Assembly: GCA_964016885.1 (NCBI GenBank)
Contig: OZ024743.1
Span: 288,238,001-288,302,000, forward strand
DNA from: Eledone cirrhosa
Lineage: Eukaryota
Direction: 5' to 3'
DNA length: 64,000 nucleotides
Below are positions 4,595 to 51,731 of the stretch, piece after piece. The number at the start of each line of letters is the position of its first letter. The first letter of the stretch is position 1. The position numbers and the translations under genes were made by a program. A model generated the notes under the pieces. That model was not told the DNA's origin and searched no databases. It was given only the letters and a program-made list of their open reading frames with translations.

Positions 4595-4719
4595 TGTGAC
4601 CTGCTTGTCAAAAGAAATACAGAAGCCGTGACGCCATATTGGAGAAAAGAATAATATTTTATTGCAGTATACATATCTTTAATGAAGATTTTGTATTTAT
4701 ATTAAAGTACATGCACCCG

Positions 4720-24616: not shown

Positions 24617-25334
24617 AAATACAATATGTTGAAAAGGAAACACACTAGAGAGAGGTAGTGTGCCATCAATAAAACAGGGAAAACCACCAGTGTATGGAAT
24701 CTATAATCTATGGAAGGCAGGGTAGACACACAATAATTAAAGATATAAATTAAAATGTATATACGCACCTCTATAACGATATAACACACGCGTACAGATC
24801 CAAAGAGATCTGTTTCGCCAGGAAGTTGTTGACTGAAATGGCGAAACAGCGCATATAAGACAAATACATTCCAGGCAACTCTAAGAGATTATAAAGCGAC
24901 CGTCCAGCTACAGGCGGCAGAGAGAAGTCACAGCGTGTTTAGGGCAGGGAACCAGTGGTATCTGAGGGACGAGCTACTAGAAAGGGCAGCCCCAAAACCA
25001 CTCAACCACTCAACCACTCTCTGCCGCGTGTAGCTGGATGGTCGCTTTAGATTCTCTTAGAGTTCTCTGGAATGTATAGTCCTGCACACTCTGATGACCC
25101 ATAGGCTATTCCATTTCAGTCAACAACTTCCTGGCGAAACAGATCTCTTTGGATTCGTACGCGTGTGTTATATAGTTATAGAGGTGCGTATATACATTTT
25201 AATTTATATTTTTAATTATTGTGTGTCTACCCTGCCTTCCATAGATTATAGATTCCATACACTGGTGGTTTTCTCTGTTTTATTGATGGCGCACTATCTC
25301 TCTCTAGTCTGTTACCTTTTCAACATATTGTATA

Positions 25335-25335
<1 letters not shown>
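24612..25335. repeat. Large (TA)n-flanked inverted repeat (outer arms ~225 bp, inner arms ~60 bp), PLE-like
   Basis: 24612-24838 is the reverse complement of 25110-25335; 24862-24925 is the reverse complement of 25017-25078; CTGATGA...GGCGAAAC hammerhead-like core at 25091-25140. Confidence 0.85.
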
Positions 25336-25371
<36 letters not shown>

Positions 25372-25501
25372 GTGAGGTTTTTTTACAAAATGAAAAATAA
25401 CCGAGGTGTCCTACGCGAGTGAAAGTATAAAGAAAAAAGGATGAAATCGAAAATGCAACTGGAGTCTTACTTTAAAAAAAATATATATATTTATTTGGTT
25501 C

Positions 25502-25537
25502 CTTTACCGGTTTCGCAGTTCTTCTGCTTTTCAAAAG
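25502..25537 (-). ncRNA. Minimal type I hammerhead ribozyme motif (U3-A8 variant)
   Basis: CTT-TTGAAAA-GCAG-AAGAA-CTGC-GAAA-CCGG-TA-AAG: stems I and II pair, stem III is the palindrome CCGG, GUA cleavage site. Confidence 0.65.
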
Positions 25538-25621
25538 TAGAGTTGAGATGGAGGGTCTGTGGTTTTTCTCACATCAGATGTGAGAACAACCACAGACACA
25601 CACACACACAGACACACACAG

Positions 25622-26268
<647 letters not shown>

Positions 26269-27023: not shown

Positions 27024-27545
27024 AATTTCTGCCTGACCAACAACCGCTTTGCATAATCAGCTCCTGATTATTTACTAGATTTCTATAAGAATATAACATC
27101 AATGATCTCGGTAGATAGGAGGGGTAGTTGGCCTTGATAAGCTTCAACCAAAGCGAAACAAGACTTGTCGGCTTATCTCCTCTGTTTGCTGAGATCAAAG
27201 TAAGTGAATTTGTCACTACTTTAAAACAATAGCTTACGGTCTTCAAAATGCTTTTAATTAAGCATAAAGTGTATTGCAAAATACATTATATATACATCCA
27301 TATATATATTGCTATTTCAGAGCTCCAATTCTAATTTTTAATTTCTGCCTGACCAACAACCGCTCTGCATAATCAGCTCCTGATTATTTACTAGATTTCT
27401 ATAAGAATATAACATCAATGATCTCGGTAGACAGGAGGGGTAGTTGGCCTTGATAATGCTTTTAATTAAGCATAAAGTGTATTGCAAAATACATTATATA
27501 TACATCCATATATATATTGCTATTTCAGAGCTCCAATTCTAATAT
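27024..27545 (+). repeat. Tandem duplication of a pLTR-like unit (27024-27333; second copy 27339-27545 has a ~108-bp deletion)
   Basis: Direct sequence identity between the two copies. Confidence 0.85.
27131..27172 (+). ncRNA. Type I hammerhead ribozyme motif (U3-A8 variant) with all stems intact
   Basis: GCC-TTGATAA-GCTT-CAACCA-AAGC-GAAA-CAAG-A-CTTG-TC-GGC: stem I GCC/GGC, stem II GCTT/AAGC, stem III CAAG/CTTG, GUC site. Confidence 0.75.
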
Positions 27546-41693: not shown

Positions 41694-44600
41694 TTCTTCT
41701 GATTTTATAATTTCACAAATTTTTTCCCAATAGAGAGAGAGTCGGTTTCTAACATAGACACAAGTCTCTCTCACTGGAATTTACACATCAACTAAGTAGA
41801 TTATGTATGCATGCATGTGTAGATATGGATGTTATTGTATGTGTGGATGTGGATGTTTTGAGTTGTATGTGTGCATGTGTATATGCTTTGTATCTGTACA
41901 TGTATATATGCAGTTATTAGATGCAATATTTTTGGAATGTTTTACATATTTTTACTGTTTCATTAATGGATTGTACTTGTAATTTCCTAACTAGTTGTGT
42001 TCTTTCTGTTCCTGTGAAGCCTAGCTTCTCAAGATTTGTATTGAGGCAGTTACTAACATACCCCAGTGCCTCAATAATCACAGGCATAAATCTGAAAGTG
42101 TAATCAGGGTGGAGTATCTGCAGATTTCTCATCAGTTCTGCATAAATATTCTCCTTTTCGCTAATCTTTGATATTATATTGGCATCTGCTGGGCAGCTAA
42201 TTTCCACTACTGTGCATGCTTTCTTATCCTTGTCCCATATCATAATATCTGGTCTGTTATGCCTGCATTTCATTTGGGTTTTTACTGGAACATTCCACCT
42301 GTACTCTTTCATATTATGTACATGGATGTCTTCCACATTGCTGTAGCTTTTAATGTGTTTATTATCCCGGCTATCTTTTTTACGAACTGCATTGTACAGT
42401 GTTTTGGCCACTACATCATGCATCATAGGTAGATAGTACCGCGATGACATCTTTGGACAGCTTCTGATGACATGGGTGATATATTCGATGTTAGTTCTGC
42501 AGAGTCTGCACTTGTTATCACATCTAGGTGTTTTGCCTATCTCTTTTGTGATTCCCTATCTCTTTTGTGAATCAGGTATTTCGTGTTAATTACCTGTCCT
42601 TGGATTGCAAAAGCGTATCCTTCAAAGTGGGAGCCAATATAGCGGTTGTTGGTCCAAGATAGACTACTTTCCTTATCTATATTACTCTCACTCTGGAGCT
42701 TCCTGGCAACATATCCATGCATGATTTTTTTGCTGATAAGCATGCAGTTTTTCATCCATGGATTCACTGTGATACTGCTGAGCGACTTCCCTGGATGTGA
42801 GTTTTTGATTATCACACAGGGAATATCTCTCGAGAAGTTCCTTCCCAACTCTCATGATCTTATCATGCAGATAGACTTGCTCGAGAGACGGGCTCCTACG
42901 CTTCGAGGTTCGTAGATGTTGTCGTAGGCATATGATGCGACATTCAAATGCTGTCTGGACTGATGTTAGGCCTCTGCCTCCCTGCTTACGTTTCAAATAA
43001 AGGCGGTCTATGTCTCTGTTGATGTGGAAGTTTCCGGTGTTGTTTAGTACTTTTCGAGTTCCAACATCAACTGCTCGGATTTCGTCTATCGTCCAATTGA
43101 GTATTCCAAACGTTGGTGTTAGGACAGGCACAGCAAACACATTGTGAGCCACTGTTTTGCTTTGTGCAGAGAGTTCCGATGACGAAATCTTTCTTATGCG
43201 GGTGTAGTATTCCCTGGTTACGCGTTCCTTATTACAGATACCATTAAGGGATATGTTCTCATCTATCCCCAGGTATCTGTAGCAGTCCTCATCAGATATC
43301 GGTGAAACAGTTAGGCCATTGATGACAATGTTGCTAGATTGGGTTGTTGTTTTTCCCCGCTTTACAGTCATATATGAGCATTTATTTTGGCCAAACTCCA
43401 TTCGTATATCCTTTGAGAACGTTGTAACCAGGCCAAGATTTTTCTTCATCCCATCCATGTTCTTGGCATAAAGTTTCAGATCGTCCACAAAGAAGTTATG
43501 GGTTAGGTTCGTATTTTTGTCCTCCTGTGAGTCAATGATGTATCCTTCACATTTCTTCAGCAGAAAGGACAAGGGGTTTAATGACAAGATGAATAATATC
43601 ACAGAGGGAGTGTCTAGCTGAAATATATCCCTGCGATATTTTATTTTATAAGTGAAAATAGAGTCCTCCCTCTCTGTCTTTAACTTTAGGATAGTAGCCC
43701 AGAAGAAGACAGCTTCTCTATGGCTCTGATAATAATGTCAGGGGATTTAGCAAGTTGGAGGGCCTCTATCATCCAAGAATGGAGAGCAGAATCGAAAGCT
43801 TTCCTGTAGTCCAGCCAGACTGTAGCCATATTCCTCCTAAGTTGTCGCACCTCCGACATCGGAGTTTTGTCGGTTAGGAGTTGTTCAGCACATCCCCAAA
43901 CCTTTTTCTTTCCAGCTTCTTATTCATCTGTGATGATGTTATTATTTTCACAGTGATCTTGGAGGAATAGGTTCAGGCAGGCTGTATACATCTTATATAT
44001 CAGGTTCTGGCATGCAATGGGTCGGTAGTTTTTTGCCAAGTGGATGTCTTTGTTCTTGGGGACCAGTAATGTTTGTGCTAATGTCAACCATTCTGGTATA
44101 AGTGTATCTCCCTTAAGAACTTGTTGGTAGAGGTCAGTAAGATACCTCCAATAGAATATCAGTTTTTTGTACCAGTAGCCGACAATCATGTCTTTTCCTG
44201 GTGTTTTCTTATCTTGGAGTTTTCCTAGCATAGTCTCAAGGGTACCCTCACTTATTTAGTATGTTTTTTTTGTAGTGTAGGAGCAATAGTTCTTTCGGAT
44301 TTCTTTTAGCCACACTGCATCTTGGTTGAAATTCTTCTTTTCACCCAATATTTTGCTCAAAAAGGAATCTATGTCTTTCTGGGATGGGGCCTCAGTGACA
44401 CTTATTATTTTGTTCTTCATATCTTTATAGACTGATGTTTGGTTTCGTCTGAATCTTTTATTAAGCACTTTTCTCTCATCTACCTTCTTCAGGTATCGGC
44501 GTTTTTCGCTAACCGCTCTCAATTCTTGTTTAAGGGTGATCAGCTTATAGTGAAAAGTTCTGGTTCTACTGTTACCAAACATCGTCTCTATTTTATTTTT

Positions 44601-45850
44601 CACTCTTTGTTGGTGAGGAGTGAGGTTTTTTTGTGTTTGTTTGCATGGAAGGAACATTGTCACATATTCTATGGTTTTTCGTAGGTCAGCAATTTTTTTT
44701 TCTATTTTAGTTATATATGATGATATGTTTGGTGGTGTTTTGTTCTTGTTAATATCTCTGCTATCACCAAGATAATGCTTCACTGTCGTTGCTAAGGCAT
44801 ATAAACAGGCGTTGATTTGCCAAAATGTTGGGGTTTTTATCCGTCGTAAATATTCATCCCCTATTTCGTCAATAACACGTAATATTTCATTATTTGTTTT
44901 TATTGTTTTTCTTTATTAAATATTGTCGTTTTAATACGTTCAGCAAGAGAGATTTCTTTTAGCCACACTGCATCTTGGTTGAAATTCTTCTTTTCACCCC
45001 ATATTTCTCTCTGGAAGGTTTTGTTGAGGGAAATTTTCAATTGTTTATACGTTTGATTATTATCATTATCGATAGTATTTTCCACAACAGTCGAGGTAGA
45101 CTCGGATGGTACACGTGGTGTCAAATTTCTTCGATTATTATTATTATCGATAGTGTTTTCCCCAGCATTCGATGTAGACTTAGATGGTACAGGTGGTGTC
45201 AAGTTTCTTACAGGCATAGTTGCTTCAAGGCACTGTTCGACCTGGCTGCTAGGAAGTCTAGTAGCATGGCGACCTGTAGCACGTGTTGTTGATCCCATGT
45301 TTGTTGTGGGGGACTTACAATTAATAATATTTATCTTATTTTTACGTTCAACAAACGTCGCTTGTTGGCGTAATTGTTTCGCTGTGAAATAATTTAGCTC
45401 TGGATGCATTTCGTCCCAGTGTAGCTTCCTTCTGTTCATATAACCAATGGAGGGATTGTTTTTTGCCATTTTATAACATTTAAATAAATCATCATTAAGT
45501 ACGCAACTCCAAGAGAAATGCGATTTATAATTTCGGTTTCTTCTGTAGCTACAACTGAATAAAGTTTGTTTACCTTTCTTGTTGTTTGTCTTCGATACTT
45601 CCTTAATTGTGTTGTTGATGTTGTGTTCAGCCATGCTGTTTGTAGCAAATCCTTGTAAAATGGATTATGTATTTAGTCGGATATCTCTACCAATTCAAAT
45701 AAAAGGTGTCTTCAGAAGATATAGTTAGAAGAATAACCAGTTATTCAACATGACTGTAGTTGTGGCATTACTGTCGGAGATAGTATTCATCTTAAATTTA
45801 ATAAATAGTCTCCCACGCCAAAATATGCGACTGATCGCGTTGACTGTGAT
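41694..45850 (-). mobile_element. Near full-length R4/Dong-clade non-LTR retrotransposon (RT, CCHC knuckle, restriction-like endonuclease), disrupted by stops and frameshifts
   Basis: ORF pieces: Myb-like N-terminus (WSCVLNDDLFKCY...GYMNRRKLHW), NYRPIACQN, WLDYRKAFDS, HNFFVDDLKLYA, YRYLGI, RLYLKRKQGGRGL, CRLC...THVIRSC, HNRPDIMIWDK...VVEISCP (PD-(D/E)xK); both ends abut CATA repeats. Confidence 0.9.
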
Positions 45851-50753: not shown

Positions 50754-51343
50754 TATATAATTTATTTATTTTTTTCTTTTTGCGTTATATATTTATTTAT
50801 TTATTTACAATTTATTTATTGCCATTTTGTCACCACTTAATTGTTCTTTTTTGAACCGTGTATAATTATTATTGAGGGGCAAGAAGTTTGTAGAATGGGC
50901 AGACAGCATAGAGCGACATATACAATGCCTTGCTTGCGCTATATAGTTACAGACCTTTAAAGTCTGGATTCAAAGCCCACCGCAATCGAATTAGCCTTTC
51001 ATCTTTCTGGAGTCGATTAAATATATACCAGTTTTGTTTATATAGTCCACTTTCACCCTACGCTAAACAATTGTATGATGTTCCTCTGAGAAAACTTTCT
51101 TTTTACTCTGCTTCCCCCTATCAGTTGAGAGACTAGCGTCTGAAACACTGCTAACTGACTGATATTGAATGTGTTGTTATCTAGTGATGGGCGTTCATTT
51201 ATATATATGTATGTATATGTATATGTATATGTATATATATATATGAGAAAGATATCGATTTTCCAAAAACAATATAAAAAATTGGAAACATAGGAGGAGA
51301 AGTTAAAACAGCTCAAAATACAGTAAGTTATCATAATAAACAG

Positions 51344-51526
51344 GGCGGTGGATTGGCAGTATCAGTAAAGGGTCGTACGCCATGCTTTCCAGCATAGTCA
51401 CGTCCCTTTACGATCTGAGTTCAAATCCCGCCGAGGTTGACTTTGCCTTTCATCCTTACGGGGTCGATAAAATAAAGTACCAGTAATACACTGGGTAATT
51501 TCTGGCCTTGTGCCTAAAGTAGAAAC
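51344..51526 (+). mobile_element. tRNA-derived SINE with 18-bp TSD
   Basis: TSD AGTTATCATAATAAACAG at 51326-51343 and 51527-51544. Confidence 0.9.
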
Positions 51527-51686
51527 AGTTATCATAATAAACAGTACAAAAGGCTACGATTAATACTTCTTGGAAATATTTTTTTTCAAATAAGCATGTG
51601 TACAAAATCCTGTTAGGTTAAAAATAATAATTACGCATGAAGCAAATTGTTAAAGTAATTACCAAATACGTTTTTACATTAAATAT

Positions 51687-51731
51687 TGATTTACGAACGT
51701 TTCGTCCCCTTATTGGGCCTTATCAAAATCA
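51687..51731 (-). ncRNA. Type I hammerhead motif (U3-A8 variant)
   Basis: TGATT-TTGATAA-GGCCC-AATAAG-GGGAC-GAAA-CGTTCG-TA-AATCA; 5-bp stem I, one mismatch in stem II. Confidence 0.6.

What the first reader, a model, noticed from the sequence alone, without database searches (positions are those of the whole stretch)
27131..27172. Hammerheads with compensated U3-A8 core in three unrelated repeats
Seen: the cores read UUGAUAA (27134; 51720, minus) and UUGAAAA (25528, minus) instead of CUGANGA, each with paired stems I-III and a GUC or GUA site. Established: C3-G8 is a Watson-Crick tertiary pair, and U3-A8 is a tolerated but uncommon natural variant. Inference: a double compensatory change in three dissimilar sequence contexts points to selection for activity. 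Standard CUGANGA searches would miss this class.
Basis: partly seen in the sequence, partly recalled or inferred. Interest (0 to 1): 0.75.

Follow-up and report, generated by a model that had tools for sequence, protein, structure and literature searches.

The report
Swapped-core hammerheads in three Penelope-type repeats
Three different repeat families in this animal genome carry a hammerhead RNA motif, predicted to cut itself, whose usual C-G core pair is U-A, a variant already in print; one family's tree shows it likely switched once from C-G and then kept the pair, while a sister of another family spread with a further change that likely weakens the motif.

Summary
All three U3-A8 cores are real (0.03 expected by chance) and each is the majority state of a dispersed repeat family. 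Site 1 lies in a 316-bp tandem retrozyme-type unit. Site 2 lies in a foldback repeat homologous to the 3' end of a young Neptune-type Penelope-like element (PLE). Site 3 lies in an older repeat with no partner found. Mismatched cores are rare: 27 of 3,022 in lineage 1, and 88 C3-A8 against 23,793 U3-A8 in lineage 2. Lineage 1 has C3-G8 sister subfamilies; a tree needs one switch (100/99) and the stems covary, so selection on source elements is likely there. Independent origin is not shown for sites 2 and 3. About 45% of lineage 2, the ORF-bearing part, has C13 in place of A13, which argues against uniform selection for cleavage. U3-A8 is published (Perreault 2011; about 1,300 in Schistosoma PLEs, Cervera 2014), and this scan noted it at least ten times on other DNA, including this lineage's switch. 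Cleavage is untested. New member of a known kind.

The parts
27025..27341 (+). Family 1: one full 316-317-bp non-coding tandem unit (retrozyme type), after a TA microsatellite
27103..27197 (+). Type I hammerhead, site 1, with long bulged stem I; core UUGAUAA 27134-27140, stem II 27141-27154, near-palindromic stem III 27158-27168, predicted cut after C27169
   Evidence: (Rfam HH9 25.3 bits, E 1.3e-4, below the gathering score of 52)
27341..27543 (+). Second family-1 unit with about 109 bases deleted from stem II onward; keeps only the 5' core strand (27450-27456) and ends in (TA)n, so this locus has one whole hammerhead
25323..25597 (-). Family 2: one arm of a foldback repeat centred on the hairpin 25555-25597, ending in (TA)n; homologous to the 3' UTR of a Neptune-type PLE
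25502..25537 (-). Minimal type I hammerhead, site 2; core UUGAAAA 25534-25528, 3-bp stem I, palindromic stem III ACCGGU, predicted cut after A25505
51529..51806 (-). Family 3, 5' part of an older dispersed repeat (copies 83-91% alike over the stretch searched)
51687..51731 (-). Type I hammerhead, site 3; core UUGAUAA 51726-51720, private G51718 mismatch in stem II, predicted cut after A51692; stem I extends further out
51197..51343 (-). Family 3, 3' part ending in (TA)n, separated from the 5' part by an inserted repeat of about 186 bases

Best explanation
The three sites are U3-A8 type I hammerhead motifs carried by three non-coding repeat families that were likely pasted into TA microsatellites by Penelope-like retrotransposon enzymes, and the motifs are predicted to cut their RNA, likely in pairs. 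Shown: the motifs, the family-wide U3-A8 state, the rarity of mismatched cores, the fixed paired 3' ends and inversions of family 1, and the homology of family 2 to the 3' end of an RT-GIY-YIG element. Shown on a tree, with the direction resting on the root: lineage 1 changed once from C3-G8 to U3-A8 in place, then kept that pair through several subfamilies whose stems changed in compensated steps. Inferred: A8 keeps the Watson-Crick pair that positions its 2'-OH, so cleavage survives; tandem family-1 RNA is cut to 316-nt monomers, perhaps circularised, and copied back by a PLE protein; selection acted on the few source elements and not on the genomic copies, which decay. For families 2 and 3 the U3-A8 state is inherited from a source whose history is not resolved.
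For: Descriptor and shuffles. Family states: 48 of 51 aligned family-1 places, 31 of 32 family-3 rows, 23,793 U3-A8 against 88 C3-A8 and 0 C3-G8 in lineage 2. Lineage 1: 3,022 matches, 13 U3-G8, 14 C3-A8. C3-G8 sisters: 32 of 37 and 37 of 38 places and one array. Tree with positions 3, 7, 8 masked: one change, 100/99. 99.3% of 306 cells paired, 14 of 22 pairs with two-sided changes, slid controls 27-46%. Family-1 arm ends: 14 of 36 at unit position 285 and 18 of 36 at 311-313, nearly all followed by (AT)n, as for the PLE tail (PMC8557442; PMC11167929). Sister motif downstream of the ORF in 28 of 30 loci; RVT_1 and GIY-YIG hits. U3-A8 active in vitro per PMC3088659.
Against: No cleavage or expression data. 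The monomer hammerhead fold is 5-10 kcal/mol above the MFE at all three sites. No ORF-bearing partner was found for family 1, family 2 proper or family 3. The ORF-bearing sister 2b has C13 and a stem I of three U-A pairs, yet is young (96-99% alike) and makes up 45 of the first 100 lineage-2 matches (my hand count). In a purified PLE, hammerhead mutants did not reduce insertion (PMC11167929), and minimal PLE hammerheads cleaved weakly in vitro (PMC4209133). Exact patterns and top-scoring hits favour young copies. The root rests on one distant array (L123); the bootstrap had not fully settled.
Confidence: 0.8

Rival explanations
1. The motifs are largely inactive passengers. PLE copying does not need cleavage, so U3-A8 was fixed by drift and AT-biased mutation in a few source elements and then amplified.
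For: Family 2b spread with C13 and a weak stem I. Both changes are transitions towards A/U. Hammerhead mutants still inserted in vitro (PMC11167929). Naiad PLEs thrive without canonical hammerheads (PMC8557442).
Against: Across 14 chosen lineage-1 rows U4, G5, A6, A9, G12, A13, A14, A15.1 and U16.1 never change while mean column identity is 75%, and all 4 stem II pairs show two-sided changes. No mismatched subfamily amplified in lineage 1.
Confidence: 0.15
2. The three U3-A8 cores come from one ancestral U3-A8 hammerhead, inherited or swapped between repeats as a module.
For: Sites 2 and 3 share a U-rich stem I, UUGA(A/U)AAG and A17; no C3-G8 sister was found for either.
Against: Early U3-A8 members of lineage 1 keep the stems I, II and III of their C3-G8 sister, so that switch was by point changes in place. 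No DNA similarity links the three repeats. A common origin of sites 2 and 3 alone is not excluded.
Confidence: 0.05
3. The three matches are chance hits in AT-rich DNA.
For: The window is about 34% GC and full of microsatellites; Rfam gives no hit at gathering score.
Against: 0.03 expected per window; thousands of copies with covarying stems.
Confidence: 0.01

Closest known systems
U3-A8 minimal hammerheads of Cercyon PLEs in Schistosoma mansoni (Cervera and de la Pena 2014, PMC4209133; parts 1-2 of 4 read)
   Same: U3-A8 core, type I, short or palindromic stem III, mostly solo and inverted copies, tie to PLE ends; about 1,300 hits reported there.
   Different: Here stem II is 4-5 bp and lacks the extra base after A9; the linked element has a Neptune-type linker; copy number is over 26,000 exact motifs; a C3-G8 ancestor is traceable for lineage 1.
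Metazoan non-LTR retrozymes (Cervera and de la Pena 2020, PMC7229834, part 2 and passages read; Li et al. bioRxiv 10.64898/2026.07.22.740005, part 1 and passages read)
   Same: Family 1 is a 316-bp non-coding tandem unit with one type I hammerhead per unit and a stable predicted circular fold (z -6.6).
   Different: Core is U3-A8; I found no such core in the main text of PMC7229834 (figures and supplements not seen). Circular RNA is not shown here.
Natural U3-A8 hammerheads of Perreault et al. 2011 (PMC3088659, section 8 read)
   Same: Same covariation; the paper says such ribozymes were already shown active in vitro.
   Different: There a rare variant ('several examples'); here a whole-family state in about a fifth of sampled type I motifs.
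Rfam Hammerhead_HH9 (RF02275)
   Same: Site 1 aligns over the whole model with a similar 4-bp stem II and C-A-rich loop II.
   Different: 25.3 bits against a gathering score of 52; site 3 only E 0.11; site 2 no hammerhead match.

Membership tests
Type I hammerhead ribozyme | Core bases in order (N3-UGA-N-N8-A, GAAA, UH) | tested here: met
   All three sites. Sister family 2b fails at A13.
Type I hammerhead ribozyme | Watson-Crick pair between positions 3 and 8 | tested here: met
   U-A at all three; U-A 9 and C-G 5 of 14 rows in lineage 1.
Type I hammerhead ribozyme | Stems I-III supported by covariation | tested here: met
   Lineage 1 only: 14 of 22 pairs with two-sided changes. Not counted for families 2 and 3; site 3 copy has a stem II mismatch.
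Type I hammerhead ribozyme | Stem I to loop II tertiary contact | tested here: inconclusive
   Site 1 has a bulged stem I and HH9-like loop II; site 2 has no long stem I.
Type I hammerhead ribozyme | Self-cleavage after H17 | not testable with these tools
   Needs an in vitro assay.
PLE pseudo-LTR hammerhead | Palindromic stem III allowing dimers | tested here: met
   Self-duplex energies -8.7, -8.3, -4.6 kcal/mol.
PLE pseudo-LTR hammerhead | Lies downstream of an RT plus GIY-YIG ORF | tested here: inconclusive
   Met for sister 2b (28 of 30 loci; 74% over 123 bases to family 2). No ORF partner found for families 1, 2 proper or 3.
PLE-mobilised insertion | Inverted 5' copy, 30-40-bp tail at one end, microsatellite target | tested here: met
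   Family 1. Families 2 and 3 show inverted arms and (TA)n ends.
Non-LTR retrozyme (family 1) | Tandem 150-450-bp non-coding units with one type I hammerhead each | tested here: met
   316-320-bp units in arrays, no ORF inside.
Non-LTR retrozyme (family 1) | Expressed as linear and circular monomer RNA | not testable with these tools
   Needs RNA data from this organism.

The most novel reading that the evidence does not exclude
Lineage 1 is a conserved two-state switch whose evolution can be replayed: the monomer hides the core strand (positions 2.1-5) by pairing it with the 5' half of stem III, and that off-helix was kept through the core swap (C3-G, then U3.G, then U3-A at 15.4; U2.1-A, U.G, C-G at 15.5), so cutting would need a dimer or the PLE protein. 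Meanwhile a young, ORF-bearing Neptune-type family spread to roughly ten thousand copies with a U3-A8 plus C13 motif, showing either that cleavage is dispensable for the autonomous element or that C13 is tolerated.
Probability: 0.3. Interest if true: 0.55.

Novelty: new member of a known kind. Interest (0 to 1): 0.32.

Why it matters
The variant itself is known, so the headline claim is not new. What the genome adds is a natural series for an open question, whether PLE and retrozyme hammerheads need to cut: sister subfamilies with C3-G8 and U3-A8 in matched stems, and an ORF-bearing family with C13. It also shows that C3-G8-only descriptors undercount type I hammerheads here by about a fifth.

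Tried and rejected
Whole-window Rfam scan: the 150 listed of 267 matches were microsatellite hits, almost all to miRNA models. RNA runs: no RNA holder listed. Autonomous partner of family 1: PLE ORFs near copies (L191-L195) lacked a family-1 3' end, and 5 widely spaced lineage-1 pairs held tandem units or unrelated inserts; rejected as neighbours or targets. Family 2 proper: 3 widely spaced pairs showed no Neptune-type ORF. Family 3: shared upstream DNA ran into microsatellite with no ORF. A first, stricter descriptor (16 C3-G8, 8 U3-A8, 3 other) missed A10.1-U11.1 families and was replaced. An amplified intermediate in lineage 1 was sought and not found; L291 (U3-G8) and L301 (C3-A8) branch near the switch but can be back-mutated single copies. 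U3-G8 was not counted in lineage 2. Primary papers on 3/8 mutants, PLE hammerhead dimers and A13 were not held, so kinetic claims rest on passages in PMC3088659, PMC6765202 and PMC11167929. Contigs of runs X5 and X6 did not cover the core.

Full report
Observation. A type I descriptor open to all 16 combinations at positions 3 and 8 finds these 3 sites and no others in the window; 300 shuffles of dinucleotide tokens in 200-base blocks give 0.03 U3-A8 hits per window. Site 3 has a private stem II mismatch, site 2 has a 3-bp stem I, and all three have short self-complementary stems III. Site 1 matches Rfam HH9 at E 1.3e-4 but below its gathering score; site 3 matches at E 0.11 and site 2 not at all.

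The repeats. The window lies in a 3.0-Gb genome. Site 1 is in a 316-bp unit found in tandem arrays and inverted pairs. Of 36 arm ends in 30 loci, 14 stop at unit position 285 and 18 at 311-313, nearly all followed by (AT)n. That matches the one-sided tail and inverted 5' copy described for PLE insertions (PMC8557442, passages) and the two internal RT start sites of a purified PLE (PMC11167929, passages). The window's second unit has lost the 3' part of the motif. Site 2 is one arm of a foldback repeat. It is 74% identical over 123 bases to the 3' UTR of a family I call 2b, whose motif follows an ORF in 28 of 30 loci; that ORF hits RVT_1 and GIY-YIG and has the CX4CX2C linker that PMC8557442 gives for Neptune (label from motifs, no tree). 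Site 3 is in an older repeat ending in (TA)n, with no partner found.

Family states are U3-A8: 48 of 51 aligned places for family 1 (2 G3-A8, 1 other) and 31 of 32 rows for family 3; these are top-scoring copies. Genome-wide exact patterns are less biased at positions 3 and 8. Lineage 1: 3,022 matches, of which 13 U3-G8 and 14 C3-A8; of the first 100 listed 97 are U3-A8, 1 C3-G8, 2 C3-A8. This pattern leaves out the two sisters with A10.1-U11.1. The mismatched copies are scattered over the stems of different subfamilies, so they look like single mutations in dead copies. Lineage 2: 23,793 U3-A8, 88 C3-A8 and 0 C3-G8. Family 3: 14 U3-A8 and 1 C3-A8 of 15, with N7 as U, C or A. In 100 evenly placed 10-kb stretches the descriptor gives 30 C3-G8 (14 loci, 12 from one array), 8 U3-A8 (6 loci), 1 C3-A8 and 0 U3-G8, against 1.65 hits of all classes in shuffles. 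So the variant is common here.

History of the swap. BLAST of the whole family-1 unit found diverged relatives in the even sample. Two are subfamilies with C3-G8 majorities (32 of 37 and 37 of 38 places), one is a C3-G8 array (L123). Trees on individual copies with the trait columns masked need one change: 32 rows, 90/96 (subsampled to at most 7 per class plus odd cores from 101 copies), and 57 rows, 100/99. Rooted on L123, U3-A8 is nested inside C3-G8 and its earliest members keep their sister's stems, so the change was by point mutation in place. On 14 rows that I chose, one or two per subfamily, 99.3% of 306 cells pair, 14 of 22 pairs change on both sides, and slid controls give 27-46%; nine core positions never change while mean identity is 75%. 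This is the real evidence for selection, and it concerns source elements. In contigs of two coded organisms (runs X1, X4) no other letter was listed at 27134 or 27139, while a two-sided change appears in stem III (27161, 27165).

Against the reading. Only one switch is documented; sites 2 and 3 have no C3-G8 sister in my searches. Copy-level mismatch rates near 0.4% are expected for young copies with no selection, and family-3 copies lose the C11.1-G12 CpG in 10 of 32 rows. Family 2b has G12-C13-A14 in 28 of 28 motifs next to the ORF and in 45 of the first 100 lineage-2 matches (hand count), with a weak stem I, yet its ORF copies are 96-99% alike. That A13 is normally invariant is recalled; a search for hammerhead with A13C found 0 papers. 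The monomer hammerhead fold lies above the MFE at all three sites and in 5 of 5 relatives (0.5-9.5 kcal/mol).

Mechanism. Shown steps are the motifs, family states, tree and insertion anatomy. Inferred: the U3-A8 pair holds residue 8 as C3-G8 does (covariation known and active in vitro per PMC3088659, section 8; single 3/8 mutants dead and a double mutant partly rescued in a PLE hammerhead, PMC11167929). Palindromic stems III favour double hammerheads (PMC4209133; PMC6765202, passages). Family-1 RNA would be cut to monomers with a stable circular fold (z -6.6 against 100 shuffles) and copied by a PLE protein. In lineage 1 the predicted monomer fold pairs the core strand with the 5' half of stem III; position 3 pairs with 15.4 in 13 of 13 rows (C-G 4, U.G 6, U-A 3) and 2.1 with 15.5 in 13 of 13. 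All these changes are transitions and few in number, so this off-state is a suggestion only.

Novelty. U3-A8 was reported in nature in 2011 and in PLE hammerheads in 2014, where a new descriptor retrieved about 1,300 hits. Searches for the term returned only these two papers; figures and supplements, which I did not see, may hold more. This scan holds 10 findings with my search words in at least 4 genomes, several on this same lineage and its switch; none matched family 2 by sequence or the word A13C. Verdict: real, a new member of a known kind, interest 0.32.

Noticed in passing
L261:1219-3324 (-) and its 3' UTR; L095; Young Neptune-type PLE family (open frames of 784 aa in many copies) whose U3-A8 hammerhead has C13 in place of A13 family-wide and a stem I of three U-A pairs.
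   Followed up: partly
window 26118 (+) and 58589 (+): Two worn C3-G8 hammerheads of one family; the first lies downstream of a GIY-YIG ORF end at 25744-25911 and has U4 changed to C.
   Followed up: partly
alignment A1 (lineage 1): Alternative helix between the core strand and the 5' half of stem III stays paired through the core swap.
   Followed up: partly
L228, L231, L123: Two lineage-1 subfamilies have A10.1-U11.1 instead of the usual G-C, with C3-G8.
   Followed up: partly
window 25555-25597; L032-L060: Most family-2 copies are foldbacks centred on the same hairpin, which suggests self-primed second-strand synthesis at that point.
   Followed up: no
L194, downstream of the ORF ending at 4639 (-): Hammerhead-like motif with a stem II extended by roughly 100 bases in the 3' UTR of another PLE type.
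   Followed up: no
L141, about 325 bases past a GIY-YIG ORF end at 2449 (-): A further UUGAGAA (U3-A8) core with a good stem II but no clear stem I.
   Followed up: no
window 51343-51529: A common repeat of about 186 bases inserted into the family-3 copy, with a short duplicated flank.
   Followed up: no
window 41920-45664 (-): Broken reverse transcriptase element; RVT_1 hit at 42691-43737, E 2.2e-6.
   Followed up: no
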